From sequence record PQ799574.1: a stretch of 64,000 bases of DNA; one strand, 5' to 3'. Below, one piece after another: positions 37,343 through 55,757 of the stretch (its first letter is position 1; every line of letters starts with the position of its first letter). The position numbers were made by a program, and so were the translations under genes. Origin of the DNA: Escherichia phage vB_EcoM_Maryam. The notes under the pieces are model-generated. The model was not told where the DNA came from. It did no database searches and saw only the letters and a program-made list of their open reading frames with translations.

Positions 37343-37510
37343 TTTTACTCTTCTTTTTCTTTAGATTCCTCTTTTTTCTTTTTAGGAATCTGTTCAGGAC
37401 CTTTATTTACTACAGCACCTGATGTTGTTCCAGTAGAGATATTTTCAGGATTACCACCTGAATCTCCAGCGACCATATCTTCTTTAATAAATTCTTTATA
37501 TGTTTTCATA

Positions 37511-37867
37511 TTAACCTCTATTCATAAAAGCATTAAAAATTTGGTCATCAATAGATGGCGCAGTAATATTTTCTGCATCATTTAGCAAATCATTAATTTC
37601 ATCAGATAGCATAACACATGTACCTTTATTTCCTGTAATTGTTACTGCACAATTACGAACGTTTTCTTTATCAAATTTTAGGTTAATATTTTCGTAGTGA
37701 AAATCCTTTAATGCCGAATATATCTTTAAAATGAAATTGTCTTTTACTACAATAAACCCAACCTCACTATTAAAACGCGGTTCATGGAAACTGTAATAAA
37801 CCTTTTCATCTATAAAATCGTATGAAATTTTTTCCATTTTTAAATATGAAAATTCAGAACTATACAT
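37511..37867 (-). CDS. hypothetical protein (61.1-like), shares C-terminal DDQIFNAFMN(R/K)G with next ORF
   Basis: ORF track 118 aa. Confidence 0.5.
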   Translation of the reverse strand: MYSSEFSYLKMEKISYDFIDEKVYYSFHEPRFNSEVGFIVVKDNFILKIYSALKDFHYENINLKFDKENVRNCAVTITGNKGTCVMLSDEINDLLNDAENITAPSIDDQIFNAFMNRG

Positions 37868-37868
37868 A

Positions 37869-38510
37869 TTAACCTTTATTCATAAAAGCATTAAAAATTT
37901 GATCGTCAATAGAAACTTTTACTTTAGGCTGTTCTTCAAACGGTAATTCATATCCACATATTACAATTTTGTGATCGATACCAAAATACACAGAAGCAAT
38001 ATTATTAATATTATTTTCAGTGAAATCTAAATTAACATCAATATCTTTTTGACTAACGCTCAAAGGATAATTAATACGAATAATTCGATTATCTTTAACA
38101 AAGATTCCACCGACATACTCTGTGCTGCGTTTAAAGTTTACACGTTTCCTAAATGAAAAATATTCAGGTTCTTTATGGGCTCGACTCATAGGGCTTAAAG
38201 TGTATTCCGAATATGAAATATCAAATCCTACACCTTCAATATGAGCCAAAGTGTCATGATTAAACCAATTATAATCGTATGCCAAATCCATTAAATTGTA
38301 ATATGTGAAAGGCACCGGATTAACATCATGTGTTGTACCTTTAAAATCTGCCCAGGCAACGATTTCGTTATCTTTAACAATTACAAAAATTGTGTCAATA
38401 AGATATCCACGGTTATTTTCATCAGGCGTTATATTATAACATTGTGCATCAGGAAATTTACCGTATTTAAACGGCGGATTTTTGTGCATATAATAAATCA
38501 TATTATTCAC
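37869..38510 (-). CDS. hypothetical protein (61.2-like), two internal VKDN-type repeats
   Basis: ORF track 213 aa. Confidence 0.5.
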   Translation of the reverse strand: MNNMIYYMHKNPPFKYGKFPDAQCYNITPDENNRGYLIDTIFVIVKDNEIVAWADFKGTTHDVNPVPFTYYNLMDLAYDYNWFNHDTLAHIEGVGFDISYSEYTLSPMSRAHKEPEYFSFRKRVNFKRSTEYVGGIFVKDNRIIRINYPLSVSQKDIDVNLDFTENNINNIASVYFGIDHKIVICGYELPFEEQPKVKVSIDDQIFNAFMNKG

Positions 38511-38796
38511 CTGTGATTTCGGTTACGATATTTTTGTTATTAAAGTTTTTATCGCAATACAGAACATAATTATACTGCATTACACCACCAGACTTAAGTT
38601 GTTTTTGCACTTCAGCTTTCATTTTAGGACGATCGCGCTCAACGATATTCATAATATCCGCTTCAATTTGAGTTTCAACTTCAGTCTGATCTGCAGTCAT
38701 AGACCATTCACACAAATCTTTATCATATCCTGCCATAGCAGGCTGAGCAGCACAAGAAGCCAAAGTAAAAATTGTAGCAAAAATAAATTTTTTCAT
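38503..38796 (-). CDS. sp: periplasmic Spackle-like protein
   Basis: 97 aa with signal peptide MKKFIFATIFTLASCAAQPAMA; size and position match recalled T4 sp (61.3). Confidence 0.6.
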   Translation of the reverse strand: MKKFIFATIFTLASCAAQPAMAGYDKDLCEWSMTADQTEVETQIEADIMNIVERDRPKMKAEVQKQLKSGGVMQYNYVLYCDKNFNNKNIVTEITGE

Positions 38797-38856
38797 GATA
38801 ATCTCCTCAGTAGTTTATGTTTATATAGTATCTCAATTTCCAACAAAAGTAAACAG

Positions 38857-39156
38857 CTATTTTAAAACTTCTGCGTAATCACATGTTACAAACTGTTTCT
38901 CTAGCTTAACGATTTTACGAAAATACCTTTTATACTGACGAATCTGCCTCTTCGTAGGACGTACAGCAAACTTAATAAATTCCACTCGACCAAATGGAGG
39001 ACTTTCTTCTGCTGGAATATCTAACACCAATTCCCACGTATCTGCAATAAGTGCTTTGAATTGAGTATTTTTCCTGACGTTATACGGAGTAGGTTTAAAT
39101 AAAACAATATGCATATTATCCTCGGCAATCCACTTCGCACACTTTCTTGTCATCAA
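38857..39156 (-). CDS. hypothetical protein (61.4-like)
   Basis: ORF track 99 aa. Confidence 0.45.
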   Translation of the reverse strand: MMTRKCAKWIAEDNMHIVLFKPTPYNVRKNTQFKALIADTWELVLDIPAEESPPFGRVEFIKFAVRPTKRQIRQYKRYFRKIVKLEKQFVTCDYAEVLK

Positions 39157-39298
39157 TGAAAGCTTTAACTAATGCTTTATTAACTTCAGCATATTGAGTA
39201 GTAGCCCATTGAACGTCATCTTTCATCATTGTGATTTCTTTAGTAAACATGCTTTCATTCTTAAACCACCCCATAAAAACTACCTTTACCAATTCCAT
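39116..39298 (-). CDS. dmd: Dmd-like protein (60 aa)
   Basis: 60 aa directly downstream of gene 41, as recalled for T4 dmd. Confidence 0.5.
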   Translation of the reverse strand: MELVKVVFMGWFKNESMFTKEITMMKDDVQWATTQYAEVNKALVKAFIDDKKVCEVDCRG

Positions 39299-39356
39299 AA
39301 CAATCTCCTCATTTAACCAACAAGACTACTATACCATAGTCTTGTCAGCTTGTAAA

Positions 39357-40784
39357 CTAAAATTTTAATTCATTTGCCAAAGCATCTAACTGAGCTCGAG
39401 CTGATTCGTTTCTTTGATAGCGATTCTGTTCAGCCTGAATCTGTTGTGAACCTGCTACTTCACTCACTTCGGTTGGAGTAGAATCTTGTTCAATTTCTAC
39501 CCATTTTTGATTTCCTTTTTGAACACCCATCAAAAACTTATTCCACTTATTCTTATCACCATATCGTGATTTGATTTGCTTAATAAGTTGTTGTTCAGCA
39601 GCTGCTAGCTCCTCAGTTTCAATGACCGCAAGCATAAAATCAGCTGTTGCTGGAAGACCAGCAGATTCTGCAATATCGCTCATGTTAACATCGGAAGAGT
39701 CCCAAGCTTGTTTACCGACCTGTGCTGCAGTCCAAAGAACAGTTTCGGTTTCAACAGCCAGAGCACGCAATTCCTCTGCGATAGCTTTAACAGTTGTGTA
39801 ACTATTTTCTGAATAAACTCGGATGCGACAAGATTTACAAATACCCAGATAGTCGACAATAATGATTGTTGGAACAAAATTCTTTTTGAGCTTCAATTCA
39901 TTCAAGAGAGACCTGAATGTATTAGCATCTGCTCCACCAGTAGGGTACTGTTTAACGATTAAACGACCAAGAGTAGATTTCTCACGCCATTTTTCCATTT
40001 TTCCTTTATACTCAGCGTAAGAAATATGTCCATCATCAATATCGTCAAGAGAAACATCGAGCATGTTAGCATCAATACGTTTAGCACAGACTTCTTCGGC
40101 CATTTCCATGGAGATATAAAGAACGTTATGACCAAGCTGTAAATAATCCGCTGCTAATGAACACAATCCTAATGACTTACCAACGTTAACGCCAGCCATT
40201 AAAACGTTCAGTGTTCCTGTTTCAGCTCCGCCTTTTGTAATTTTATTCAAAATACGAAGTTTAAATGGAACTTTACGAGCTTTATTCATATAAGATAGCC
40301 AGCGTGCTTCGTAGTCATCCATCCAATCATGACCAACGTAGCTATCAAATGAAATTGATAATGCTTGGCGCATGATGTCAGGAATAGCACCAACATCCGG
40401 CATTTTCTTATTTCGTTTTTCCGGAGGAAGCTCAGCATTAGTTTGAATTTCGATTATTTTAGACGTAGCATTAAACATCGCCCTTTGCTGAACATATTTT
40501 TCTGTTTCTTTTACTAACCAGCTGTGGTCTTCCGGAGAATCAGCCAGTTTTGAAATAAGTGTTTTTACACCAGAATATTCTGTTTCAGTAAATGAACTAT
40601 TTTCTAATGCAACATTTAACGCATTAATAGATGGAACGCTATGGTACTCATTAACATGAGATTTAATTAATTTGAATGTATTTTTAGCTGGACCACTTTC
40701 AAAATATTCTGAATCCATATATGGCCAAACTTTTGAAAAATAAGCTTGATCAAATATAAGATGAGAAAGAATAATTTCTACCAC
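39357..40784 (-). CDS. 41: replicative DNA helicase gp41 (DnaB-like)
   Basis: 475 aa; Walker A GVNVGKS. Confidence 0.95.
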   Translation of the reverse strand: MVEIILSHLIFDQAYFSKVWPYMDSEYFESGPAKNTFKLIKSHVNEYHSVPSINALNVALENSSFTETEYSGVKTLISKLADSPEDHSWLVKETEKYVQQRAMFNATSKIIEIQTNAELPPEKRNKKMPDVGAIPDIMRQALSISFDSYVGHDWMDDYEARWLSYMNKARKVPFKLRILNKITKGGAETGTLNVLMAGVNVGKSLGLCSLAADYLQLGHNVLYISMEMAEEVCAKRIDANMLDVSLDDIDDGHISYAEYKGKMEKWREKSTLGRLIVKQYPTGGADANTFRSLLNELKLKKNFVPTIIIVDYLGICKSCRIRVYSENSYTTVKAIAEELRALAVETETVLWTAAQVGKQAWDSSDVNMSDIAESAGLPATADFMLAVIETEELAAAEQQLIKQIKSRYGDKNKWNKFLMGVQKGNQKWVEIEQDSTPTEVSEVAGSQQIQAEQNRYQRNESARAQLDALANELKF

Positions 40785-40793
40785 ACTTACTCC

Positions 40794-41138
40794 TTAAAAG
40801 AATTTAAACTTTTTCTTTGACCTTTTATTAAATGCATCTTGTAGTTGCATTGTAATACATTTTTCTACATGAGGAGCTAACTCAGCTTTTCTTTCTTGGT
40901 CAAGAACAGCAAAGTCCATTACAACCTTTCCATCAACCCAATCCAGTTTAGTTACATACACTATATGTGTAGAACCATCTTCTAGTTTAATGACAATCTC
41001 CTGGATAACATTTTCCATGGCAGATTTAATTATCTTAAGAGATTCATTAAAAAGACGTTCTTTTCTTTCTTCTTCCCCCTCCGAAGAGGGGGATTCATCG
41101 ATAATTTCTAGATCTAAATCTAAATCATCTTTATTCAT
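40794..41138 (-). CDS. 40: gp40 head vertex assembly chaperone
   Basis: ORF track 40794..41156; second ATG gives 114 aa without overlapping uvsX. Confidence 0.6.
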   Translation of the reverse strand: MNKDDLDLDLEIIDESPSSEGEEERKERLFNESLKIIKSAMENVIQEIVIKLEDGSTHIVYVTKLDWVDGKVVMDFAVLDQERKAELAPHVEKCITMQLQDAFNKRSKKKFKFF

Positions 41139-42312
41139 TAAATTCTTCCATATCACTTAACTGCTCGAGGTCAGTTTCTAAATCAGCAGCTGATTTACTT
41201 TTACTTTCTGAAGATTTAAATTTTTCAACTTTTGAGTTAATCAATTCATCAACTTCAGCTTCAACAATTTCATTACTATCAATAGCACCTAACTGATAAG
41301 CACGTTTAATAGCATCTCGGAATGGTTGATGCTTAAATAAAGGACCCCAGAATGTAGTGCAGTTGGTATCTTTTGCACGCCAAGATTTTTCTTCGCGAAT
41401 CATCTCGCCGGTTTCTTCGTCAAGAAATTCACGCGCATACCAACCATTTTTAGGTTTTACTACAAATCCTAATTCTAGAGCCATATCTAACAATCCAGAA
41501 TAAGGATCAATACCACCGTCAAATTTAACATCAATAAAGAATTTACTTTTTTCTTTAACGGTACGAGATTTTTCTACATTTAGAACAAATTGATACCCCT
41601 GAAGATCAGAACCATCTTTAATCTGACGCTTACCGATAATGAATACTGTATCAGCCGAATACATTACGCCTGTACCACCTGTCATCACGGTTTTACTAAA
41701 CATTTCAATTGTTTCAATTGTATGGTTAACCGCAACACATGGAATATTTTTAATGCTAAAGTAAGGAGTAACGATACGGAATAATGACTTCAGTGATTTA
41801 GCACGAGTCATATCTGCCACAGATTTTTCATTTAAGGCATCTTCCGTTTCTTTCTTAGAAGCCATATTACCGATTGAGTCGATGAATACAATAACCTTTT
41901 CACCACGCTCAATAGCTTCAAGCTGATTCACCATATCAATTTTCAGCTGTTCAACTGACTGAATCGGCGTATGAATTACTCGTTCCGGGTCAACTCCCAT
42001 GGATCGCAAATAAGCTGGAGTAATACCAAATTCACTATCATAGAATAGACAAACCGCGTCAGGATATTTGTTCAAATATGCCGCAACCATAGTCAAAGAC
42101 ATATTTGATTTAAAGTGTTTAGAAGGCCCTGCGAAAATAGTTAAACCAGACTGCATACCGCCATCAATCGCACCAGAAATAGCGATATTAAGCATTGGGA
42201 TTTTTGTGCGGATTACATCCTTTTCATTAAAGAATTTAGATGTAGTCAGTTCAGCAGTCATTTTAGAAGTGGAAGCTTTAATCAAACGGGATTTTAAATC
42301 TGCAATAGACAT
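41131..42312 (-). CDS. uvsX: UvsX recombinase (RecA-like)
   Basis: 393 aa; RecA-fold motifs; recalled T4 UvsX. Confidence 0.95.
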   Translation of the reverse strand: MSIADLKSRLIKASTSKMTAELTTSKFFNEKDVIRTKIPMLNIAISGAIDGGMQSGLTIFAGPSKHFKSNMSLTMVAAYLNKYPDAVCLFYDSEFGITPAYLRSMGVDPERVIHTPIQSVEQLKIDMVNQLEAIERGEKVIVFIDSIGNMASKKETEDALNEKSVADMTRAKSLKSLFRIVTPYFSIKNIPCVAVNHTIETIEMFSKTVMTGGTGVMYSADTVFIIGKRQIKDGSDLQGYQFVLNVEKSRTVKEKSKFFIDVKFDGGIDPYSGLLDMALELGFVVKPKNGWYAREFLDEETGEMIREEKSWRAKDTNCTTFWGPLFKHQPFRDAIKRAYQLGAIDSNEIVEAEVDELINSKVEKFKSSESKSKSAADLETDLEQLSDMEEFNE

Positions 42313-42389
42313 TCATTTTTTCCATAGGCATCATTATATTTTCCTCACTGGTTAAAGATAGAGTAATTATAACATAATAAATTTAGGCA

Positions 42390-43238
42390 TTAATCAACTG
42401 CTATTGGATGAATAGCATTAAACTTATGAAATGCTTCTGATTTTTCTTTGCGCGAAACGCACATGCGAAGAACCTTTAATGGCTCGTCTTCTTCACCCAA
42501 CGATTTTCGTTTTTCAATATTAGAAGTTTTCCAACGAGCTTGCTCTGGAAACTCTCTATTGATTTGCTCAAGCGCTCTATTATGTTTAGAATTACTACGA
42601 ATTGAACTACACCCGCCAGGAGCTTGTGCTTTTCCAGATACAACCAGATATTTGAACAAGGCCAAATGCGGATAACCTTGATTAATTAAATTGAGAAATG
42701 CATACATATCTTCGCACAAATCAATTTTTCCATACCCAATTTGTTCTGTCGTAAGTTTTCCGAGGTCATACCATGTATTCGTGAATCCATATGAATTTTC
42801 ACGATAATTACCCCAAGATGAAGTAATTTTAAAAATTGGTAGGCGAGCATGACCGTGATAATACCCGCAATCCATGGCATCTTCAACGTATTGAATCAAT
42901 TCATAGAACTGTTCACGGGTTAATTGATTGACTTTATCTACACAACGACGGTCATCTCTTTTTCGCATTGAACTCATACGAATAGTAGTATCATCGTCAA
43001 TCATCCAGATTCGTTGACCTGCATACATATCAGTAATTGCTTTACGAGTACCGGCAATTCCGTTTACATCATCAGGAATAGTTATAATTTTAGCTCTAGA
43101 CCCATAGGCATCATAATAAGCTTTTTCTTCATGTTCACGCACTACAATATGGGGTTCATAATCAGTCGGAAACATATCAAGGGCAGAAACTGCCCCGACA
43201 CGCTGATAACTTGGAATTACGAATTGAATCATTTCCAC
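42390..43238 (-). CDS. putative glucosyltransferase at the beta-gt locus (T2/T6-type beta-glucosyl-HMC alpha-glucosyltransferase-like)
   Basis: 282 aa with DDD motif; lies between uvsX and 42; does not resemble recalled 351-aa T4 beta-gt. Confidence 0.5.
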   Translation of the reverse strand: MEMIQFVIPSYQRVGAVSALDMFPTDYEPHIVVREHEEKAYYDAYGSRAKIITIPDDVNGIAGTRKAITDMYAGQRIWMIDDDTTIRMSSMRKRDDRRCVDKVNQLTREQFYELIQYVEDAMDCGYYHGHARLPIFKITSSWGNYRENSYGFTNTWYDLGKLTTEQIGYGKIDLCEDMYAFLNLINQGYPHLALFKYLVVSGKAQAPGGCSSIRSNSKHNRALEQINREFPEQARWKTSNIEKRKSLGEEDEPLKVLRMCVSRKEKSEAFHKFNAIHPIAVD

Positions 43239-43969
43239 TCACCGTTATAATCTTTTTTCACAATATGAGTTTCGCCAGTATTCCACCAATGATCAACCAA
43301 GTAAAAATGACGAGAATATACATGAAGACTTCCAACATTCCATATAATAGAACCTGCTTTATACTGACGAGTTGAATCGCCGGCATTCAAATCAGATACT
43401 AATTTATCTAATACGTATTTTTGCCATGCATAATCATTACGGAATCCGAAGACCACGTCATTTGAGCGCATGCTTACTACTGCATTGACTTTCTTATCAC
43501 GAATCAGGTACTGTACTGTATTAGTACACATGAAATCTGACATACCATCTTTATTGTAGTCAAATTGCATGGATGGACGAGTATAAATCATGATACCACG
43601 TCGAGAATCAGGATTTTGACCAAGTTCAGCTAAACACATATCATACTGGGCATAGTTATCTTCTGACCAAATAGCCCAACCATAATTCGAGTTAATTTCG
43701 CCTTTAGAAGATGCTACCTGCTGCCAAATCTTTGGTGTTTCGCCTGGAATATCTTTAACAAACAAGCTCTTAGATTTATACCATTCAAGTTCACGCTGAA
43801 TGTATTCATCATTAAGAGCGCCAAAAATAAAGGGTTCATCTGCTACAAATGATGCGCCAATAATTTCAATAGTTTTAACGCCAGTTTTATCAACTACGAA
43901 ATCTTTTTCCTTTAATGCAGTTCCCAAATAAAAACGGATTTCTTCAACTGTCATAGAGTCATTAATCAT
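43229..43969 (-). CDS. 42: dCMP hydroxymethylase gp42
   Basis: 246 aa; thymidylate-synthase-like fold. Confidence 0.9.
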   Translation of the reverse strand: MINDSMTVEEIRFYLGTALKEKDFVVDKTGVKTIEIIGASFVADEPFIFGALNDEYIQRELEWYKSKSLFVKDIPGETPKIWQQVASSKGEINSNYGWAIWSEDNYAQYDMCLAELGQNPDSRRGIMIYTRPSMQFDYNKDGMSDFMCTNTVQYLIRDKKVNAVVSMRSNDVVFGFRNDYAWQKYVLDKLVSDLNAGDSTRQYKAGSIIWNVGSLHVYSRHFYLVDHWWNTGETHIVKKDYNGEWK

Positions 43970-44122
43970 TTAAACCTCAATTGATACATTCATATTTAAC
44001 TTGTAACAGTAATAAACCCCAACCTAAAATAATAGTCGGAATCATAAGAGGAACCGTTACACTATAGTATATACTTATTATAATCATCAAGATTAAAAGC
44101 AACACTTCTATAATTTTGCTTT

Positions 44123-44374
44123 TCATTCCTTCTCTCTGATGATAATTACTTGATTTGGCTGTGCAGACTTTTTAGTTTCACCCGCAATTGACCAAATAAA
44201 TGTAATAAACCAACCAATAATTGACCAGTTAAACAGCAAAGACGTGAAAAAGATTCCTACTGTCGATTTTGACCCACGCATCAAGGCGATAAACCATGGA
44301 AGCATGTATATAATAATAGCCAACACACCTGAAACTAAAACCATAAAAATTGAACCTGCTACTAAAGTTTCCAT
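44123..44374 (-). CDS. imm: immunity (superinfection exclusion) membrane protein Imm
   Basis: 83 aa, two TM segments. Confidence 0.8.
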   Translation of the reverse strand: METLVAGSIFMVLVSGVLAIIIYMLPWFIALMRGSKSTVGIFFTSLLFNWSIIGWFITFIWSIAGETKKSAQPNQVIIIREKE

Positions 44375-44381
44375 GTTTTCC

Positions 44382-44762
44382 TCACTTAGTCAAATTTTTT
44401 ACGCATGAATTATAAGAATTCACTACATACTCCATCGGAGCATTTTTACCGGTACGCCATTGGTAATTATTAGCCCAATTTGCCCAAAGCTCGGCGCAGT
44501 AGTTTTCAATTTTTTCTTCGCGTGTAATTACATCCGAATTACGATATGCTTGAGCAGATTCATCTGGACGAATAGCTTCGTCAAAATTTGCCTGCATTTG
44601 TTCTACTGTTTGCTTTGGAGCTTCTTTATAACACTTGACATTAGGATTATAAAACTTGCTTGAACAGTTTACAATTTTTCCTACATCAGACTGATTTACT
44701 ACCGGTCCTTGAGCCACACAACCAGTAAGACCTAATGCAATAACCAAAATAGCGATTTTCAT
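44382..44762 (-). CDS. putative lipoprotein adjacent to imm
   Basis: 126 aa; signal peptide with lipobox LTGC. Confidence 0.5.
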   Translation of the reverse strand: MKIAILVIALGLTGCVAQGPVVNQSDVGKIVNCSSKFYNPNVKCYKEAPKQTVEQMQANFDEAIRPDESAQAYRNSDVITREEKIENYCAELWANWANNYQWRTGKNAPMEYVVNSYNSCVKNLTK

Positions 44763-44772
44763 AATAATTTCC

Positions 44773-45021
44773 TCAAATGCAAGTAGTAATTACTCCAGTA
44801 GTGCTTATGCAGGTATTACCCATTTGCACACCTAAAGATCCATTTGTATTCACATGAAGATTATCATCAATTTTAACTGATATTTTACCATTAGTGTGAA
44901 TAACGGTGCTAGATTTAATCACAGGTTGAGTATCATTTTCAACACTAATAAATGGAACTGCTACTAATGCAACTAAACAAACTGCTAAGCATCCCATAAC
45001 AATTTTCATTTTATTCTCCAA
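44773..45021 (-). CDS. secreted/membrane small protein
   Basis: ORF track 82 aa; hydrophobic N-terminus. Confidence 0.45.
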   Translation of the reverse strand: MENKMKIVMGCLAVCLVALVAVPFISVENDTQPVIKSSTVIHTNGKISVKIDDNLHVNTNGSLGVQMGNTCISTTGVITTCI

Positions 45022-45025
45022 ATCT

Positions 45026-45055
45026 GTATCAGTAGTTGATAGTTGTATAGTACCA
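45026..45055 (-). promoter_or_regulatory. T4-type early promoter (GTTTACA 17 nt TACTAT)
   Basis: Reverse complement reads GTTTACAAGACTGTTCTTCTGTGGTACTAT. Confidence 0.5.
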
Positions 45056-45163
45056 CAGAAGAACAGTCTTGTAAACAGTTTTGTGAAAATTTTTTAGGGA
45101 ATTCTAAAGGTCCAGAATCATCTGTTTTTCATAAGTATAGATTTATATTACTTGTATGAAAAA

Positions 45164-45179
45164 GGGACCCGGAGGTCCC
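45164..45179 (-). terminator. GGGACC-loop-GGTCCC hairpin with U-run downstream of gene 43
   Basis: Inverted repeat read from sequence; A-run on plus strand. Confidence 0.55.
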
Positions 45180-45192
45180 TAGATTTATTCTA

Positions 45193-47888
45193 TCAGCCAA
45201 ACAGGAAGTCTAACGAAGCTTTTTCTTCATAGTCCATACCAGCCGATTCACACATGCCTGCAAGCGGTTTAACAAACGATTTTTGGAACAAAGTTGAGTA
45301 GTCAATCCAAGATAGTACATCAGAACGAATTTCTTTTGGAAGTTCTGTACCCGACGGCCAAGCAATGCACTTGTCGCCAAATGGATTTCCTTCACGTAAT
45401 GGAAGAACCATTACCTTATTTCCATCCAAAATTGGAGCTACACCCAGACCACTAACAGCTCGACGATAAGTTAGCACACCACGAATATGGAACGGGCATT
45501 TAAATCCTGGCCAACCTTTATCATCATATTTCGCTATATCGTTCGCAGTTTTTACTTCAGCAATAACTTTATAGTCAAGTTGACGATATTCTTTCTCGAA
45601 GTTCTTGTAATATTCTTGGACAGACTCTTCACCTTCCTGAAGAATACGACGAATACTTTCTTCAAGAGCTTCTTGAACTGCTTTAGGCGTTGAACTTTGC
45701 TGAGTTTCCATACCCATGATTTTTAGATGCGGTTCAGCAAAACGCTTATCTTCCATATCATATACGTTCAGAGCATAACGCTTTTTCGCTTTCCAAAATC
45801 CACCAACGCCCTTTGAACCAAGTGGAGGGCAAGAAATAGCTTCACGGTCCATATGCATCAGATGCTCGCGGTTATTCATATAATCACATAACTCACGATA
45901 TGCAACATCAATCATAGGTTCCATCTTTTTCTTACCGAACTGATTCATGAATTCAACTAAATCGTTCTGCTCTTTGAATCGGTCAAGACCAACTTTTTCA
46001 ATAACTTTATCTACACAAACATATACCGAATCAGTATCACCTGCTGCAATGAAATCTTCGCCATTAGTTCCGCACACTTTATTCAGATACTCATTAATTT
46101 TACGAGCAATCCACTGAATACCAACTTGGCCGAAAATTGTGATAGCAGTAGCATTTCGCAAATCATAGTAACGGAAATGAATATTACCAAGAGCACCGTA
46201 AAGGCTGTTAATAAGAATTTTACGGTTCAGCTGATTTGTATTAGCAAGTGTAGCCGCTTTTTCACATTCTTCAATCAAACTATTGAGAACAGATTCAGTA
46301 TAATTCGATAGTTCATTTAAGAAATCATCACTGAACTTAACATATCGTTCAACTTCAGGTTTAGTTGAACAAGACCCTGCGCCTTTCATAATAATCTTTT
46401 TAATAGCTTCGGCATTCATTTCTTCAGCGAACATTTTCTTTTTCCAATCTTTACGCTGGAAAAATACTTTAGCGATTTCCTTTGGAATGATACCTTCTTG
46501 ATGCTTATCGTACATCCATCCATTCGGAGAACAAGAATATTCATCACTCGGTTTAGGAGCTGTTCCTGCGATATATTCATGAATTGGATGAACTTTAAAC
46601 TGACCACGAATAGTCTCAGGACTAATGTTAACCTGACGAATAATGCTCGGATACAGAGACGTCAAGTCAAAACTCATAATATATCGACGAGCAATTGGTT
46701 TAGGTTCAAATACAAATGCACCCGGAAAACTCTGTTTAACGTGCGAACCTTGTTGAGGAATAACCTTATGTTCACCTTTCAATGAGTTAAAAATAATAGC
46801 ATCCCAGGTTTTAATAGGACTCATTACACCAGAAAAAGGCATTTTAGCGTAATAAGACATACTTAAAACTAGATCGATAAACCCGCGAATTTTATCAATT
46901 GCTTGAACTGATTCTACGTCAATGATGTTATAACTAATGTATCGTTGATGATTAGTCTCACGAAGTTTATTAATAGGACCGTCGTATGGTAATTTACCTT
47001 TTTTGGTTTCATGCTGAGCAACTGATTCCAAAGAGAATGACGGCAAATTAGTAAATGCGAATTTCTTATACAAATCTAAATAATCAAGAATAGATACGCC
47101 ATCAATAGAATAAATTTCTTTGCTACCGTACATATTTTGGATAAGTTTAGATTTTACTCGACCGATTGGAGAGAAGCGTTTCATACTACGTTCACCGAGA
47201 ACCATTTTAACGCGATTCATGATATACGGAACGTCAAATCCCTCAATATTCCAACCAGTAAAAATAGCAGGTCGTTTCTGTTCCCAGAGATTGATATATT
47301 CCATGAGCATATCACGCTCATTATCGAATGGCATATAAATTACTCGGTCAAGAATTTCTTGAGGAACTTCATCACCACCTTCACAGTCAAGCTTAGCAGC
47401 TAACTTTGCATCCCATTTTGATACTGAACCATACATTGAATTCAAAAGGTCGAAAACATAAAAACGATCATCAATTGAATCGTAATGAGTGATAGCATCA
47501 ATTTCATATTCAGCTTTCATTGGGTCAGGAAATTTATCACCAGTAACCTCAATGTCACAGTTAGCTACACGAACAAATTTTCGGTCATAAACAATTTCTG
47601 AACCGTATGTATCACTGATAAAGCGAGTTTAAAATCGTTCATACCGAGAGCTTCGAGACCGATGTCTTCCATTCGTTTCATCCAATCTCGAGCATCTTTC
47701 ATTGATGGAAATTTTTGAGGAGCGCAGTTTTTACCATAGATGTCTTTGTACTTTGACTCTTCCTTACAATGCCTAAACATAGTTGGAAGATATTCTACTT
47801 CACGAGTACGTTCCTTTCCATTTTCATCAATATAACGTTCAACAATATTATTTCCGACTGTTTCAATAGAGATATAAAATTCTTTCAT
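45193..47888 (-). pseudogene. 43: DNA polymerase gp43 interrupted by a 1-nt frameshift near 47619
   Basis: N-terminal 84 codons in ORF 47565..47888, remainder in ORF 45193..47520 in another frame; the second frame is open upstream and reads ISDTYGSEIVYDRKFVRVANCDIEVTGDKFPDPMKAEY. Confidence 0.85.
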
Positions 47889-47930
47889 AGATATTCCTTA
47901 GTTTATAGCCCGAGTTATTAGGCTCTTGAT
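47889..47930 (-). promoter_or_regulatory. probable gene 43 translational operator / 5' leader hairpin
   Basis: Leader contains AGAGCCUAAUAACUCGGGCU-type hairpin just upstream of SD AAGGAA; T4 gp43 is known to autoregulate via such an operator. Confidence 0.3.
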
Positions 47931-47948
47931 ATATTATACTCCAAATAA

Positions 47949-47962
47949 GGGGCCGAAGCCCC
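47949..47962 (-). terminator. GGGGC-UUCG-GCCCC hairpin
   Basis: Same 16-nt core as at 51729-51744. Confidence 0.5.
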
Positions 47963-47968
47963 TTTGCT

Positions 47969-48256
47969 TTAAATTTCTATTGTACGACGCGATATAACGG
48001 ACTTGCCATCTGTATTTGTGGTTTTGATAATCGCATGAAATGCGCGTTGGCGTGGGTAAACTAATCGTTGGAATTCTTTTTGGAATTCTATTTGTTTATC
48101 TTCCGGGAGGTCAAAAACCAGTTGGGTAGAAGACAGACCATATGTTTGTTTTAGATTTTCGAATATTAGAAAAGCTTCGGTAAACTGAATCTCTGATTGT
48201 GTCATATAATTTACCTTAATTACCAATCGTATATTTAGGAACGAGTTTCCATTCAT
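47969..48256 (-). CDS. hypothetical protein between regA and 43
   Basis: ORF track 95 aa; start likely internal. Confidence 0.45.
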   Translation of the reverse strand: MNGNSFLNIRLVIKVNYMTQSEIQFTEAFLIFENLKQTYGLSSTQLVFDLPEDKQIEFQKEFQRLVYPRQRAFHAIIKTTNTDGKSVISRRTIEI

Positions 48257-48585: not shown

Positions 48586-49131
48586 TTACCATTCCAATGC
48601 TAGTTTTTTGAGTTGTTTCTGTTCTTTTACGTTCTTAGTCACTTCTTTCAAAAAATCATCCGTGACTAAACCTTTTAGTTCTTTTAATACTAAAGGAAGT
48701 TTTCCATTTTTAGTAAGAATTGATTTATAGTTAATTGCATCATTTGTATTAACTTGATACCACTTAGCAAGTAACTTAATAATCAATACTTCGGTGGAAT
48801 CTTCAACCAGTTTTGCCCATTTACCGTATCTTTTACCACGAGGAACTGCAGCCATTAGATAATTAAAATGAGCTTCATCACTTAAGCCTGATCCAATTAA
48901 ATTCATAGCATATACAGCTGGCATGCACTCTGGAAATTGTGATAATGCATTTTCAACCATGAATTTTGAATAATCTTTTTGAGCAATAGAGCATTTAGTT
49001 TTATTATTGATAGCTCCAATTATTTCAAAAAATTCATTTTCAGCTTTTTCTTTAAAAGAATCAGCAGCGGATTGGACAGCTGTCCAATCTTTTGAATACC
49101 AAGCAAGTAGGAAAAGATTATGTATGCCCAT
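48586..49131 (-). CDS. 62: clamp loader small subunit gp62, N-terminus atypical
   Basis: 181 aa; from [15 protein letters not shown] onward matches recalled gp62, first ~9 residues MGIHNLFLL do not. Confidence 0.75.
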
Positions 49132-49237
49132 TTAGTTCTCCGGTAAATGGAATGCTAAAACCTGCTTTACGCGATCTTTATATTGCGATGAACGAAGAAA
49201 TGATAAAAGAATTAAAACGTCAACTGAAGGTGATTTA
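49111..49237 (+). pseudogene. 3' fragment of an unidentified ORF ending at breakpoint 2
   Basis: Frame open only from the stop at 49108; encodes ...MLKPALRDLYIAMNEEMIKELKRQLKVI then stop. Confidence 0.3.
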
Positions 49238-49239
49238 AT

Positions 49240-49458
49240 TTGGCCAGGGAAATTAATTCAAAATCCGATTATTTTAATTCTCTCAATGATAAAGATAAAA
49301 ATCTAATACGGCATTTTATTGTTGAGATGGGATATACCGATACACGCGATTTAAGAGAACATATATTTGAATGTGGTGTAGCTAAAAAGTTTTCATTCAC
49401 ATGCAAATGTTTGAGAGAGGTAATTCAGCACTATGAACAATTTAGTCGCAAAACATAA
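49240..49458 (+). CDS. hypothetical protein
   Basis: ORF track 72 aa. Confidence 0.5.
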   Translation: MAREINSKSDYFNSLNDKDKNLIRHFIVEMGYTDTRDLREHIFECGVAKKFSFTCKCLREVIQHYEQFSRKT

Positions 49459-49541
49459 TTTTAATAAAGCTTCTGTTCATAAGGATAAGAAGAAAGCGTT
49501 TAAAGAATCTAATCGCAAGCAGAAACATAAGGGGAAGGTCT

Positions 49542-49820
49542 ATGATTATTGATTCTCAGTCTGTGGTTCAATACACAATCAAAATTGATATTCTAGAAAA
49601 GCTATATAAGTTTCTACCAAATTTATACCACTCAATTGTTAATGAATTAGTTGAAGAACTACATCTCGAGAATAATGATTTCTTGATTGGAACTTATAAA
49701 GACCTCTCAAAAGCAGGATATTTCTACGTAATTCCAGCACCAGGAAAAAGTATTGATGATGTATTAAAAACTATAATGATTTATGTCCATGATTATGAAA
49801 TTGAAGATTATTTCGAATGA
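49542..49820 (+). CDS. arn: Arn (anti-restriction nuclease) -like protein
   Basis: 92 aa; position upstream of asiA. Confidence 0.6.
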   Translation: MIIDSQSVVQYTIKIDILEKLYKFLPNLYHSIVNELVEELHLENNDFLIGTYKDLSKAGYFYVIPAPGKSIDDVLKTIMIYVHDYEIEDYFE

Positions 49821-49981
49821 GTCATAATCTTGAAAAAGTAATCGAGCATAATGTAGCTCAGGAACGTAAGTCGTTCAAGGAATTCGTAGAAAAAATTTTT
49901 GAAGAAAATAGCACAGACCAGTTTACAAATCAAACGTCTGATGATATTATAACAAAGTCAACTAATTGAGTGGTATAGTTA

Positions 49982-50254
49982 ATGAATAAAAATATTGATA
50001 CAGTTCGTGAAATTATTACTGTTGCGTCTATTTTGATTAAATTTTCCAGAGAAGATATTGTTGAAAATCGTGCTAATTTTATTGCATTTCTGAATGAGAT
50101 TGGAGTAACGCATGAAGGTAGAAAGTTAAATCAGAATTCATTCCGTAAAACTGTTTCTGAATTAACTCAAGAAGATAAGAAAACCCTCATCGACGAATTC
50201 AACGAGGGTTTTGAGGGTGTATATCGATATCTAGAGATGTATACGAACAAATAA
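49982..50254 (+). CDS. asiA: anti-sigma-70 factor AsiA
   Basis: 90 aa MNKNIDTVREIITVASILIKFSREDIVENRANFIAFLNEIG... Confidence 0.9.
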   Translation: MNKNIDTVREIITVASILIKFSREDIVENRANFIAFLNEIGVTHEGRKLNQNSFRKTVSELTQEDKKTLIDEFNEGFEGVYRYLEMYTNK

Positions 50255-50911
50255 TTATTTAGCCCTTCCTAATATTCTGGCCGCCTGAGCACATATTGAT
50301 TCAAGGCGGTCATTACTTATATGATCATTTCTATACCAGTACATGGTTATCGTTCCAGCATAGATATTATCCAAATTAAAATATGGACAACTGTACATGT
50401 AGTTTATTTCAGGAGTAGGCTTTTTAGTTGGTAAAAAAGCAAATTTTGAGTTGGAATAATAATGACGTCCATTTAAATGAACTGCATATTCATCCATAGT
50501 TTTATCAACAGGATATCCTCCAAGTGATTTTTCACTTATTGTTGAAGGTAATTTTCCTTCATATGCTATAATATCAACAAAATAGTTTAAGTTTTTAGGG
50601 CGGAAAGAATACACCGCACTAAAGTCTGCCTCAGATGATATATGAACTATCTGGAGTTGTTCCAGGGCGACAGATTCAAAGCGTGCATTTCTTTCCTTTT
50701 CAATAATTTCACTGTATGTTTCATACTTTGATTGCTTATAGTACTCAAAGAAACTATCTCCCCTATACCAAACAATCGCCATCATAAATAAAAGAATTAC
50801 GACAGCTACACGGGAAGCAAGAACTTTCCCGGTAGCGTTATCTTTGAACAAGCGATCTAGAACACCAAATAGAATATCAGAGGGCGAAAATGATATTCTA
50901 GGTGCTGCCAT
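50255..50911 (-). CDS. t: holin T
   Basis: 218 aa with single N-terminal TM and large periplasmic domain; convergent with asiA. Confidence 0.9.
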   Translation of the reverse strand: MAAPRISFSPSDILFGVLDRLFKDNATGKVLASRVAVVILLFMMAIVWYRGDSFFEYYKQSKYETYSEIIEKERNARFESVALEQLQIVHISSEADFSAVYSFRPKNLNYFVDIIAYEGKLPSTISEKSLGGYPVDKTMDEYAVHLNGRHYYSNSKFAFLPTKKPTPEINYMYSCPYFNLDNIYAGTITMYWYRNDHISNDRLESICAQAARILGRAK

Positions 50912-50941
50912 AGACCCTCCTTTTAAGGATATTTATTCAAA

Positions 50942-51718
50942 TTATACTCTTGGACCATATATTGCTCCAACATTTTGCCACGTTGGAGAAGACCCTATAA
51001 CAGCATATCCAGAATCGCCGCCATTGTATTCAGATCCTTGACCACGAATATTACATCTACCTCCTGCGGCGCCTACCTCACCACCGCTTCCGCCATTATA
51101 GATACCGTTCACGGACCCCGATCCAGGCGCATAAAGAGTACCAGCAGTTGCGCCTGATTGCATATCAATAGATCCGCCAGGTGCACCAAACGGACGCCCA
51201 CCACCACCACCAAAGGTTAATCTCATTTGTGAAAAAGGAGAATAATACCCACCGCCACCACCGCCACCACCGGCAGCAATAGCTCCGCCATTATTAATTC
51301 TTAGTCTCCCACCAATATCGTTTTGAATACAATGACCTCCAGCTGAGCCAGGACTATTGCTACCGCCATTACCTCCACGACCATACATCGTTACGCCGTG
51401 TATATTTAACTGAACATATTCATTTGGTGTATCTCCGTACATAAAGAATAAAGGAACATCTTTAGAATATGATACTAAATCACCTGTAATATTAAACACT
51501 ATAGGTGCACTACCTGCCTCAAAACATCTATCTCGGAACCATTGACCATTGAAGTTATGGTCTGCTCCAAGCGTGTGAATTATTTCAACAGATCGACCTA
51601 TCATATTACTCATCCAAAACGGAACGCCCATTCTTAATCTTGCGGCTGCTCCTGCCATCCAATGGTCTCCAGTCTGTGCCAATGCAGAAGTTCCTATCCA
51701 CGGTCCTGCTACTGCCAT
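50942..51718 (-). CDS. 38: long tail fibre adhesin gp38, T2/T6-type with glycine-rich repeats
   Basis: 258 aa from ATG 51718 ([15 protein letters not shown]...), GGAGG SD; poly-Gly runs; ORF track starts at upstream TTG. Confidence 0.8.
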
Positions 51719-51728
51719 ATAAACCTCC

Positions 51729-51744
51729 AAGGGGCCGAAGCCCC
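51729..51744 (-). terminator. GGGGC-UUCG-GCCCC hairpin between genes 37 and 38
   Basis: Identical core to hairpin at 47947-47962. Confidence 0.45.
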
Positions 51745-51749
51745 TCTTA

Positions 51750-54700
51750 TTATTTTAACAATGATTTAACTAATGCTTTAAGTTCTTCGATTTCTGATTT
51801 AAGTTCTGCAATTTCTGCAGTATGCTCATTGATTGCAGCTGTATTTAAACCAATTACACCGTTATAGTTCAAACGAAGTAAAGCTTCGCCATCAGGGTCA
51901 CCTTCAACTAATTCTGGTAAAATAGCTTGAACTTCTTGAGCAATTAAACCGGCGTTAGGTTCCCATTTCTGATTGCCTTCTTCATCTAGGCCTCGCTTCT
52001 GCATATAAGTGTAACCGTTAATTTTGGAAAGCTTCTCAGAAGCATTTTCAAATTTAACAAGGTCTTTTTTAACACGAATATCAGAACGGACATAAACATC
52101 TCGAACAAATGTGGAATAGGCATCGCTCTGTTGGACTAAATGACCAAAAGAAATAATAGCTCTTCCTTGTTCAGTCCACAAAGCACCAGTGGTATCCCAA
52201 AGACCTTCATGGAGATGGTAAGCGGACGACCATGAAGCAATATGCATTCCATTTGCAACCATATTAATTCGCCCATCACCGCCATGAACTAATCCAGTAT
52301 CATTATCACCAATAACAAGACATGGTCCAGTCCACACCGGGTCACCACCGCCAGCTGATAATCTTGCTCCGGTTTGAACCATGTTAGGAACATACAGAAC
52401 TCCAGTGTGGTGGAATTCATAGATAGCTTGTGGGTCAGAACCGTTTTCCTGGTTACCTACACGAATAATACCTTGTGCCCAGTTATTAGTAATGCGACGC
52501 ATACCAAAATCAACGCTAGATATGTATCCTTCATTCGTAATAGCAGATTTTCCTTTAATAATAGGATAATAACTATCATTACCAACATTACCAAAATCTA
52601 CAAATATCGGAGCTTCTTGTCGCCATTGGTTTCCCCAATCGCCAGCCTGGTGCGCAGTCCATTGTGTACCGTTTATATGAAGGCGGTCTCTATTAAAATT
52701 AAATGTTCCTTGACCTTGAGGAGAAAGCGATATTTCGCCGTTATTTGTTATGTATACACCACCCTGTGTAATGTAACTGTAAAAACCTAGACCGTTGTCG
52801 CCGCCACCTTTGCCTATATACCAGTTATTTGTACCACCTACATCACTACGGATATGTGATGAAGCACCTCCGCCAGCAGTTAAAACGAGAGCATCATTGC
52901 CTGCTGATAAAGTCAATTTACCAGTCATCGTGTCGCCTTCTTTAGAAACACGAGTAGCTATTGCATCGCGAATATTTGTGGTTTCTCCCGCAGAAGTAAA
53001 CGATTTCCAAATATCTGAGAAAATATTACCATTACGAGCAATAGTAGCTTCACCGCCGCCGACTTGAACGTTATCGGGGAAATTAACTGTACCGTCTTGA
53101 TTAAAACGAGACGTATGGCCTTGTGAACCATCTTCTTTTAAATGATGTAAAACAAATGTACCCGAATTAATTTCAGTACCTAAAGACCAAACAGCTTTAC
53201 TGTTTAAAAACTTCTGTTTAACAATAGGATAATATTTACTTACTGCGTCATCATCGATTTCCTGGAAAATAGGAGCTGCTTGAACATATTGAATATCATA
53301 ACCACCAGCGCCAGCGCCGTGACCAGTAAATTTAATATATCCGTTTGCTGCGAACGTATTGTAACTTGATTGTAAATCTGGAATAGTAACTTTACCAGTA
53401 TCTAAAGCCATACTAAACGGGCGAAGTGGACCGATATCACCATGTTTACCTTCACCATAAGCAGTTGGAATAATATGAAGACTGCCTTCTGAACGTCTAA
53501 AAATAGCTCCATAATCTGCGTTCCAAATGCGAAGAGCATTCACTGCTCCAGATGAAATTTCGCCTGTTGTGTGAACTCCTCTATTTCCAGCAGTAACACC
53601 AGATGATTCAAATGAACCGTTAACGTTCATTTCTACTTCACCTGTTGTAAGTCTTTGAATATAGCTCATCCAGCTAGTTGCATCGGAAATTTCCATGACA
53701 TTTTTGCGATTACCTTCACTAGGAATAGTAAATGTATTACCCCACACGGAAATTGTCATATTATCAACTGAACTACTACCAGTTGTGTTACCTCTAAACA
53801 TCAGTGTAGAAGCATTATTTCTACCATCGATATTAACAGAACCACCAATAACGTCAATATTACCAGGAGTAACTAACAAACCGCCATGAGTATTAATGTT
53901 TGTGGTACCCTTGCCGCGGAAATAATGATGATAGTTACCGCCTTGATAATATCCTAAAAGAGTCTGACCATCTCCAAACGCGTTATTATCGTGATATGTC
54001 ACGACAGTAGCAAGAGCATAATTTTCAGTTGGAGGAGTAGTTAAATCGGTTCCGTTAGTAGAATATCCAGCTACAAATTTTCTTAGGCTAGTTGTTTCGC
54101 TAGGACTAAATAAAAACGTTTTTGTTCCATTATTAACGCTAAAATAATATCCATCTTGATGCCATTTAAATCCAGTATCATTATCTCCTAAAGCAATACT
54201 AGATTGTCCTAATATTGAATAATCTTTATTACCAGGTGTTAAACCAATAGAAATTGAGTGACTTGATTTAATTCCGCCGCTCCAAGTAAATGACCAAAGA
54301 TAGGTGTCAAGTCCATCACCTGCATACCAAGTTATTCCATCATTATCTTTAACTTCATGGAAAATACCAGAACCAACGGCATTACGCATGACACGAAGAT
54401 GATTAATAGCAGTAGTGCTTTCAGACAATGGAACATTGTCTGCCATCGAATAGATGTCATAATCACCCGTAGATTTATTATTAGTAATGACTTTGTTGGT
54501 CAGAATTTGTGGAGACGAAATAGATTTCCATGCTGATACTTCAGGTGAAGTAAATAGTCCACTGCCTGAAAATGCATAAGTGCTTTCGCTACCAGCGGCG
54601 TAGTCTTGAACCCTGATATTAAGTACTTGTGTAGTTAAACCATCATTAGCCGGGGCATAAATGATTCCGCGTTCGCGACTATTGTTATCGAAAAAACGAA

Positions 54701-55061
54701 CATGCGCTGTACCTGAACTTTTTGTAATAAGTTCTCCGCCTTCAGTCATAATCTGCCCAGCGGAAATAATATCGCGAGTTACTCGAGCAATACCAATTAA
54801 ATTAAAATTACCAGTCTGAGTGAAGACGCCATTTAAAGTATAATCGCCAGTTTGGTTATAATTGCCTGTATGAATAACATTCCCGTCAATACTACCGCCT
54901 TTAGCAAAACCCAGATCAATAATATTTCCTTGGTCATCTTTAGTAAAAAGTACACGGTCTTTTAAGTTTATAGCCAATTCACCTTCGGCTAATACTGAAG
55001 CGGCAGGACGTGCTCCTGCAGTTTTGCTTCTTTTAAATTGTATTTGTTTTAAAGTAGCCAT
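51750..55061 (-). CDS. 37: long tail fibre distal subunit gp37 with C-terminal intramolecular-chaperone-like domain
   Basis: 1103 aa; glycine-rich fibrous repeats; C-terminus SDIRVKKDL...[15 protein letters not shown]...[14 protein letters not shown]. Confidence 0.85.
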
Positions 55062-55069
55062 AAGTCCTC

Positions 55070-55726
55070 TTAATAATAGCCGAAATCTTGAACAGAATCC
55101 TTAATAACAATTTGGTCAAATCGTGGAACATGCGAGGGTTGAGATGCAGGATTCTGTGAAAAAAGGTTTGGCGCAGTTAAATTTCCTGTCATAGTGTCTC
55201 CAGAGCGTAATACCCTAGAGTTTGCGTTTGCTGTAACAATATTTATTGCTCCATCAACATAATCTTTCCGCGTAAGGTCATAATTATTTACTGGTGATAA
55301 CGAAGTTACACGGATTTGTGATGCTTCAATTACGCCCTTTGAGCTAATATCTCCATTTCGTGTGTTAATTACTACAGTTCTACCTGCTGTTCCTTGTGAT
55401 GATTTAAAACCAATACCATACCACGAAACAATATCCATATTTGTAGTATCATACGTGGCACTATCACCAGGACCAGCAAAAATACCATTATCGCCTGACC
55501 CTGCGCCAGGAACAGTCATTCCTTTATTAAAAATTACTTTATTTAAATAAGTACCACCATTAGCTTTAGAAACGAAATCGTTATCTGCAGCTTGTGGTTT
55601 ATTATATTCTGAATATATTTTAAATGATTTATAGAGTACATCGTCACCGGCTGGATTCAATGGAAAATTTCCTTGATGCCAAATGACAGAGCCTCCGGTT
55701 GTTGAACCTACTTTTAAATCAGCCAT
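55070..55726 (-). CDS. 36: long tail fibre hinge protein gp36
   Basis: 218 aa; position between 35 and 37. Confidence 0.85.
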   Translation of the reverse strand: MADLKVGSTTGGSVIWHQGNFPLNPAGDDVLYKSFKIYSEYNKPQAADNDFVSKANGGTYLNKVIFNKGMTVPGAGSGDNGIFAGPGDSATYDTTNMDIVSWYGIGFKSSQGTAGRTVVINTRNGDISSKGVIEASQIRVTSLSPVNNYDLTRKDYVDGAINIVTANANSRVLRSGDTMTGNLTAPNLFSQNPASQPSHVPRFDQIVIKDSVQDFGYY

Positions 55727-55749
55727 TGTATGCCCCTTTATTTTAATAG

Positions 55750-55757
55750 TATTTATA
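55750..55757 (-). promoter_or_regulatory. late promoter TATAAATA upstream of gene 36
   Basis: Reverse complement of TATTTATA at 55750-55757, ~24 nt upstream of gene 36 ATG. Confidence 0.6.

What the first reader, a model, noticed from the sequence alone, without database searches (positions are those of the whole stretch)
47565..47640. 1-nt frameshift in DNA polymerase gene 43
The polymerase N-terminus (MKEFYISIETVGNN...EALGMNDFKLA) is in ORF 47565..47888, which then reads LSVIHTVQKLFMTENLFV and stops. The rest of the protein is in ORF 45193..47520 in a different frame, and that frame is open upstream, reading ISDTYGSEIVYDRKFVRVANCDIEVTGDKFPDPMKAEYEID. The two frames overlap around 47615-47625, where the minus-strand sense reads GCTTTATCAGTG; one extra A (GCTTATATCAGTG) would restore a single ~898-aa ORF. 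No other large conserved gene in the window is broken, so this is a point indel: a sequencing error, a real inactivating mutation, or less likely a frameshifting site.
Basis: partly seen in the sequence, partly recalled or inferred. Interest (0 to 1): 0.85.

Follow-up and report, generated by a model that had tools for sequence, protein, structure and literature searches.

The report
One-base gap breaks phage polymerase gene
The DNA polymerase gene of this T4-like phage lacks one base that every related phage has, in a sequence that is visibly stitched together from contigs, so it is most likely a sequencing or assembly error and not biology.

Summary
Gene 43 (T4-type DNA polymerase, minus strand, 45193..47888) is split into two frames by the loss of one A from codon 90 (TAT), between window bases 47621 and 47620. 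Putting the A back gives an 898-codon ORF, 99.7% identical in protein to T4 gp43.

The deletion allele is unique. It is in 0 of 668 phage records, in no viral or metagenome contig, and neither product is on record. The rest of the gene looks fully functional: 62 synonymous to 3 non-synonymous codon changes against T4, all catalytic motifs present, and 75 nt upstream identical to T4, including the translational operator.

Nothing supports recoding. The site has no slippery sequence, there is no downstream structure (z = -0.19), and relatives do not share the arrangement. Neither ATG-initiated ORF encodes residues 90-128, which hold the ExoI motif.

The window is not a collinear genome. Two abrupt joins (13988|13989 and about 49101-49106) flip a 35-kb block and remove gene 44, most of gene 45 and most of motA. 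A 100%-identical sibling record reads normally across the first join.

Best reading: an isolated consensus error in a draft-grade assembly (about 0.8). A genuine null allele in the sequenced DNA is the main rival (about 0.15). Interest is low.

The parts
45193..47888 (-). Gene 43, T4-type family B DNA polymerase. It is 2696 nt here, including the stop, where relatives have 2697.
   Evidence: The pol frame from I91 aligns end to end with residues 91-898 of the solved 898-aa polymerase 9e5y and with RB69 gp43 residues 93-901.
47565..47888 (-). N-terminal ORF: native residues 1-89, then 18 out-of-frame residues (LSVIHTVQKLFMTENLFV) and a TAG stop at 47567..47565.
47620..47621 (-). Site of the missing base. 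The A of codon Tyr90 (TAT) is absent between these two T residues.
   Evidence: Relatives span 61 nt where the window has 60.
47565..47628 (-). The 64-nt zone where both frames are open. It runs from the -1-frame TAA at 47631..47629 to the 0-frame TAG. Any -1 recoding event would have to happen here.
45193..47619 (-). Polymerase frame from Ile91 to the stop. The first ATG in this frame is Met129 at 47520, so residues 90-128, including the ExoI motif D112-I-E114, lie in neither ATG-initiated ORF.
47889..47963 (-). 5' leader, identical to T4 over 75 nt. It holds a GC-rich hairpin, a TATAAT-like box, the 18-nt operator hairpin (47924..47907, loop AAUAACUC) and the Shine-Dalgarno AAGGA (47899..47895).
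   Evidence: alignment with T4; hairpin. The operator is described in PMC3014915.

Best explanation
This is an isolated single-base consensus error: one A dropped from codon 90 (TAT) of an otherwise intact, functional gene 43. It sits in a draft-quality record of a Tequatrovirus (T4-like phage). The phage itself almost certainly carries the normal 898-codon polymerase gene, and the two ORFs are an artefact of the deposited sequence.

Shown here: the deletion, its uniqueness, the intactness of everything else in the gene, and the mis-joined contigs around it. Inferred: that the base is missing from the record and not from the phage. That inference rests on gene 43 being essential in T4 (established genetics, where amber mutants are DNA-negative conditional lethals) and on the phage apparently being a propagated isolate.
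For: 1) Uniqueness. None of the 668 phage records matching the 60-nt site carries the allele. The best matches are 60/61 with one gap. There is no hit in viral contigs or metagenome contigs, while the wild-type 25-mer is found three times in viral contigs. The 107-aa and 775-aa products are not on record.

2) No decay. After repair the gene differs from T4 by 62 synonymous and 3 non-synonymous codons, and from 303Ecol101PP by 28 and 1, with the same pattern on both sides of the break. The ExoI motif, the polymerase motifs A (DLTSLYPS), B (KILINSLYG) and C (DTDS), and the 5' operator are all intact.

3) A broken gene would be lethal. Residues 90-128, including ExoI, would not be made, and the window holds no second copy.

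4) The record is demonstrably mis-assembled. Window 1-13988 is 100% identical to PV290051.1 positions 32001-45988. It then jumps, without any Ns, from codon 19 of gene 45 into motA, whereas PV290051.1 continues collinearly with T4 into gene 44. A second abrupt join lies at about 49101-49106. Together the joins flip a 35-kb block and drop genes 44, 45 and motA. The pieces (45,988 bp, 35,118 bp, then at least 14.9 kb) come in descending size, as concatenated assembler contigs would.

5) No recoding signals.
Against: The assembly is not generally indel-prone. In a 16-kb four-way alignment the gene 43 deletion is the only window-unique 1-nt indel inside a coding region, and no other ORF of 60 aa or more is frame-split, either in the window or in the sibling record. 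The deleted base is not in a homopolymer, which is the classic error context. A hypothetical TTTT (Y90F) precursor allele is not seen in any of 672 records. No reads, coverage or platform information is available, so the error itself is inferred and not observed.
Confidence: 0.8

Rival explanations
1. The deletion is a real null mutation present in the DNA that was sequenced. Examples would be a defective gene-43 variant carried along in a mixed or high-multiplicity lysate and complemented in trans by a co-infecting wild-type or related T4-like phage, or a rare molecule that set the consensus at very low coverage.
For: The base is cleanly absent, in a non-homopolymer context, in an otherwise indel-poor sequence. 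A fragmented assembly would fit low coverage or a mixed population. The purifying-selection pattern shows the event is very recent, which is what a fresh spontaneous mutation would look like.
Against: Gene 43 is essential, so such a genome cannot be propagated alone and would be quickly lost or repaired by T4-type recombination. It would not normally dominate a consensus. No other record or contig carries the allele.
Confidence: 0.15
2. The break is compensated during translation. A -1 ribosomal slip would occur either at C_UUU_A (P-site tRNA-Leu moving from UUA to UUU, giving full-length gp43 with Y90L) or at the formal heptamer A_AAU_UUG (47580..47574).
For: The frames do overlap over 64 nt and a -1 shift is the direction needed. 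A slip at UUA would yield a polymerase with a single substitution. One X_XXY_YYZ heptamer exists in the overlap zone. Autogenous derepression of gene 43 translation (PMC3014915) could amplify a leak.
Against: There is no canonical slippery heptamer at the junction. The one heptamer present also exists in wild-type relatives in another frame, and a slip there would scramble residues 90-105. No stimulatory RNA structure is present (MFE -19.7 against a shuffle mean of -19.1, z = -0.19). The longest homopolymer is 4 nt, which rules out transcriptional slippage. None of 668 relatives shares the arrangement. Spontaneous slippage is orders of magnitude too rare, and amber mutants with comparable leak are DNA-negative (established T4 genetics).
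Confidence: 0.02
3. The gene is a functional two-piece polymerase, like the naturally split 43A/43B genes of Aeromonas phages 25 and 44RR. The N-terminal fragment and a re-initiated C-terminal fragment would assemble into an active enzyme.
For: Split gp43 enzymes exist and are active (Petrov et al. 2010, as summarised in PMC2988022). Both pieces here are open ORFs.
Against: There is no inserted spacer or second translation-initiation region. The first start codon in the pol frame is Met129, with GGTGAT 15 nt upstream, so residues 90-128, including the ExoI residues D112 and E114, would be missing from both pieces. The split is one missing base relative to 668 relatives.
Confidence: 0.01

Closest known systems
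T4 gene 43 / gp43 (family B replicative DNA polymerase; solved as 9e5y, with RB69 gp43 as 1clq and 1ig9)
   Same: After adding one A the gene has 898 codons and differs from T4 gp43 at 3 residues (I230V, D610G, H864Y). It has the same neighbours (imm.1, 43, regA, 62), the same 5' operator and Shine-Dalgarno sequence, and the same catalytic motifs.
   Different: As written, the window has 2696 nt instead of 2697, which splits the reading frame at codon 90.
Naturally split gp43 (43A/43B) of Aeromonas phages 25 and 44RR
   Same: The polymerase is encoded as two ORFs.
   Different: In those phages the split comes with an inserted untranslated spacer or a seg homing-endonuclease gene, and each half is a proper cistron whose products co-purify and are active (PMC2988022). 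Here nothing is inserted, one base is missing, and 39 residues including ExoI fall between the two ORFs.
Programmed -1 ribosomal frameshift sites (E. coli dnaX A_AAA_AAG; lambda G/GT G_GGA_AAG)
   Same: Two overlapping frames, with -1 as the required direction.
   Different: There is no slippery heptamer at the junction, no stimulatory structure, no upstream Shine-Dalgarno-like stimulator, and no conservation of the arrangement. The dnaX and lambda sequences are quoted from general knowledge.
T4 gene 60 translational bypass
   Same: It is the known recoding event in a T4 replication gene.
   Different: Bypass hops over a 50-nt coding gap from a take-off codon that is directly followed by a stop. 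Here the stop lies 18 codons past the break and there is no gap. This phage also lacks the gene 60 gap altogether: its topoisomerase large subunit is a single 606-aa ORF.

Membership tests
T4-type gp43 family B DNA polymerase | Full-length collinear similarity to T4 and RB69 gp43 | tested here: met
   Residues 1-89 are 100% and residues 90-898 are 99.5% identical to T4. The pol frame aligns with residues 91-898 of 9e5y and 93-901 of RB69 gp43.
T4-type gp43 family B DNA polymerase | DNA_pol_B and DNA_pol_B_exo1 domains, with the ExoI (DxE), PolA (DxxSLYPS), PolB (KxxxNSxYG) and PolC (DTDS) motifs | tested here: met
   Pfam PF00136 scores 88.9 bits and PF03104 scores 72.9 bits, both above the cut-offs. 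The motifs CDIEV, FDLTSLYPS, KILINSLYG and GDTDS are visible in the repaired translation.
T4-type gp43 family B DNA polymerase | Conserved position between imm.1 and regA, with the autoregulatory operator hairpin upstream | tested here: met
   Synteny is shown. The 75 nt upstream are identical to T4, including the loop AAUAACUC (PMC3014915).
T4-type gp43 family B DNA polymerase | One uninterrupted ORF of about 898 codons | tested here: not met
   A 1-nt deletion in codon 90 splits the gene into 107-aa and 775-aa ORFs. This is the finding itself and is attributed to an error in the record.
Programmed -1 ribosomal frameshift | Slippery X_XXY_YYZ heptamer at the point where the frames must change | tested here: not met
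   The junction reads C_GCU_UUA_UCA. The only heptamer in the 64-nt overlap (A_AAU_UUG, 47580..47574) is also present in wild-type relatives, and using it would scramble residues 90-105.
Programmed -1 ribosomal frameshift | Downstream stimulatory hairpin or pseudoknot | tested here: not met
   The MFE is -19.7 kcal/mol against a shuffle mean of -19.1, z = -0.19, and 83 of 200 shuffles fold at least as well.
Programmed -1 ribosomal frameshift | The two-frame arrangement is conserved in relatives | tested here: not met
   None of the 668 matching phage records has the deletion, and no viral or metagenome contig has it either.
Naturally split gp43 (43A/43B) | An insertion (untranslated spacer or seg gene) between two complete cistrons | tested here: not met
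   Nothing is inserted and the locus is 1 nt shorter than in relatives. The next start codon in the pol frame is Met129, 38 codons downstream of Ile91.
Naturally split gp43 (43A/43B) | The two products assemble into an active polymerase | not testable with these tools
   This needs co-expression and an activity assay. It is argued to be unlikely because ExoI (D112/E114) is in neither ORF.

The most novel reading that the evidence does not exclude
The deletion is real and fixed in a viable phage. Full-length polymerase would be made by inefficient -1 slippage of tRNA-Leu at C_UUU_A (giving gp43 Y90L), with the leak boosted by loss of gp43's autogenous translational repression. That would be an essential replicase kept alive by unprogrammed frameshifting.
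Probability: 0.02. Interest if true: 0.55.

Novelty: not a real feature. Interest (0 to 1): 0.07.

Why it matters
Its main importance is for data quality. Taken at face value, the record would give this phage a broken polymerase: two CDSs or a pseudogene. That would distort gene counts, core-gene phylogenies built on gp43, and screens for recoding sites.

The same window also contains two mis-joined contig boundaries that delete essential genes, so the whole record should be treated as a draft.

If reads were to confirm the deletion in a plaque-forming phage, it would be a rare case of an essential replicase surviving a frameshift. Nothing in the sequence points that way.

Tried and rejected
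1) I looked for the same allele elsewhere. Exact 28-mer and 24-mer scans of viral and metagenome contigs found nothing. A 60-nt BLAST against 50,697 phage records found it in 0 of 668 matching records. Exact-product look-ups for both ORFs found nothing.

2) I tested whether the site could be a homopolymer undercall of a natural Y90F (TTT) allele. No record carries GCTTTTATC with these flanks, so that idea has no support.

3) I tested whether the assembly is generally indel-ridden. It is not: gene 43 is the only frame-split among ORFs of 60 aa or more in the window, there is none in the sibling record PV290051.1, and only three window-unique indels occur in 16 kb.

4) I checked for recoding signals. 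There is no slippery site at the junction, no structure and no long homopolymer.

5) JLBYU31 is listed with "DNA polymerase (x2)". This turned out to be a mis-named small ORF, not a split polymerase.

6) A literature search for the phage name (vB_EcoT_BCU) returned no paper. One search call failed on a term that was too short.

7) I considered a true 35-kb genomic inversion. I rejected it because both joins delete essential genes and the sibling record reads through join 1.

Full report
**What is there**

The minus strand of window 45193..47888 carries gene 43, the T4-type family B DNA polymerase. The N-terminal ORF (47565..47888, 107 aa) reads the native sequence up to Ala89. It then reads 18 unrelated residues and stops.

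The rest of the protein lies in the -1 frame. That frame is open from just after a TAA at 47631..47629 and reads ...ISDTYGSEIVYDRKFVRVANCDIEV.... Its first start codon is Met129 at 47520.

tblastn with T4 gp43 puts residues 1-89 in frame -3 at 100% identity and residues 90-898 in frame -2 at 99.5%. The two matches share one base.

Relatives read GCT TAT ATC AGT where the window reads GCT TTA TCA GT. The only single edit that explains this is loss of the A of codon Tyr90, between window 47621 and 47620. Re-inserting it gives 898 codons plus a stop.

**What the gene looks like otherwise**

- The window is a Tequatrovirus, not T4 itself. The closest records are about 97-98% identical over 14 kb, and gene 43 is at most 99.6% identical to any record.
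- The repaired gene differs from T4 by 67 nt in 65 codons, 62 synonymous and 3 non-synonymous. It differs from phage 303Ecol101PP by 28 synonymous and 1 non-synonymous codon. The bias is the same upstream and downstream of the break.
- Pfam finds DNA_pol_B and DNA_pol_B_exo1 above their cut-offs.
- The pol frame aligns end to end with residues 91-898 of a solved 898-aa polymerase (9e5y) and with RB69 gp43.
- The 75 nt upstream are identical to T4, including the 18-nt operator hairpin with loop AAUAACUC and the Shine-Dalgarno sequence. The operator is described in PMC3014915.

This is a gene that was fully functional until the instant the base went missing.

**How unusual the allele is**

- All top matches to the 651-nt region span 652 nt.
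- With a 60-nt query centred on the site, 668 phage records match. The best are 60/61 with one gap, and none carries the deletion.
- Exact scans for the deletion-bearing 28-mer and 24-mer find nothing in IMG/VR viral contigs or JGI metagenome contigs.
- As a positive control, the wild-type 25-mer is found three times in the viral contigs.
- Neither the 107-aa nor the 775-aa product is on record anywhere.

**Could it be read through?**

A -1 shift is the direction needed, and it must occur within the 64 nt of 47628..47565.

- The junction (C GCU UUA UCA) is not a slippery heptamer.
- The one formal X_XXY_YYZ heptamer (A_AAU_UUG, 47580..47574) is also present in wild-type relatives, in a different frame. 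Using it would replace residues 90-105 with unrelated sequence.
- The longest homopolymer is 4 nt, so transcriptional slippage is out.
- The 111 nt around the site fold no better than shuffled sequence (z = -0.19).

Re-initiation at Met129 would omit residues 90-128, which include the ExoI residues D112 and E114.

The naturally split 43A/43B polymerases of Aeromonas phages 25 and 44RR come with an inserted spacer or seg gene and two proper cistrons (PMC2988022). Nothing like that is present here.

**The context changes the picture**

The window is not one collinear genome. Mapped on T4, it has three pieces:

| Window | T4 coordinates | Orientation |
|---|---|---|
| 1-13988 | 48.6 to 32.55 kb | reversed |
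| 13989-49106 | about 163.5 kb through the origin to 30.86 kb | forward |
| 49101-64000 | 162.03 to 147.6 kb | reversed |

This is equivalent to a flipped 35,118-bp block with about 1.7 kb and about 1.5 kb lost at the two joins.

- Join 1 fuses codon 19 of gene 45 head to head with codon 25 of motA.
- Join 2 fuses gene 62, minus its first ~15 codons, to the inside of arn.2.
- Gene 44, most of gene 45, arn.3, arn.4 and most of motA are missing.
- There are no Ns at either join.

Window 1-13988 is 100% identical to positions 32001-45988 of PV290051.1. That record is "Escherichia phage vB_EcoT_BCU-2, complete genome", only 46,924 bp long, from the River Chelt, UK. It continues collinearly with T4 through gene 45 into gene 44.

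Join 1 is therefore an artefact of concatenation or scaffolding. The pieces appear in descending length, as assembler contigs would. I infer that the source is a later or sibling version of that record, made by stringing contigs together.

**Weighing it**

For an artefact:
- The allele is unique.
- The gene is otherwise pristine.
- Gene 43 is essential; this is established T4 genetics and was not tested here.
- There are no recoding signals.
- The record is demonstrably draft-grade.

Against a simple "noisy technology" story:
- The sequence is not indel-ridden. Gene 43 is the only frame-split among ORFs of 60 aa or more, both in the window and in the sibling record.
- It is the only window-unique 1-nt coding indel in a 16-kb four-way alignment.
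- The context is TATAT and not a homopolymer. A hypothetical TTTT precursor allele is not found in nature.

Without reads the error cannot be observed directly. I put an isolated consensus error at about 0.8, a genuine null allele in the sequenced DNA (a defective, complemented or low-coverage variant) at about 0.15, and recoding or a functional split together at about 0.03.

**Verdict**

Interest is low. The useful outcome is a warning that this record has a one-base error in gene 43 and two mis-joined contig boundaries.

Noticed in passing
window 13933-14062 (join at 13988|13989): There is an abrupt join without Ns. Gene 45 (+ strand, first ~19 codons) runs head to head into motA codon 25 (minus strand). 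PV290051.1 is 100% identical up to this base and then continues normally through gene 45 into gene 44, so the join is an assembly or concatenation artefact.
   Followed up: yes
window 49090-49135 (join at about 49101-49106): This is a second abrupt join. Gene 62 lacks its first ~15 codons and is fused to the interior of arn.2. Beyond it the sequence runs backwards through asiA, t and the tail-fibre genes 38-34. With join 1, this flips a 35,118-bp block and removes gene 44, most of gene 45, arn.3, arn.4 and most of motA from the window.
   Followed up: yes
window 1-13988: This stretch is 100% identical to GenBank PV290051.1 positions 32001-45988. That record is labelled "complete genome" but is only 46,924 bp long and is collinear with T4 79.98 to 31.6 kb, so it is one contig of a ~167-kb T4-like phage.
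   Followed up: partly
window 35121-35327 (minus strand): The homologue of a conserved 69-aa ORF just downstream of soc (intact in phage 303Ecol101PP) carries two in-frame stop codons (W30*, R60*) at 93% identity. It is either a decayed accessory ORF or further base errors. I did not check it against other relatives.
   Followed up: no
window 22134-23954 (minus strand): The topoisomerase II large subunit is a single 606-aa ORF (T4 genes 39 and 60 fused). The T4 mobA insertion and the 50-nt gene 60 translational-bypass gap are absent.
   Followed up: partly
window 2624-2627, 3903-3926, 8694-8719, 35139-35564, 42300-43247: Mobile elements of T4 are missing compared with the T4 reference: the nrdD intron with I-TevII, mobC, mobB, segF and segA. 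The T4 beta-glucosyltransferase is replaced by a T2/T6-type beta-glucosyl-HMC-alpha-glucosyltransferase.
   Followed up: no
window 47969-48256 (minus strand): A 95-aa ORF sits between regA and gene 43 (ORF43.1 in relatives). It occupies about 246 nt that T4 lacks. Its function is unknown.
   Followed up: no
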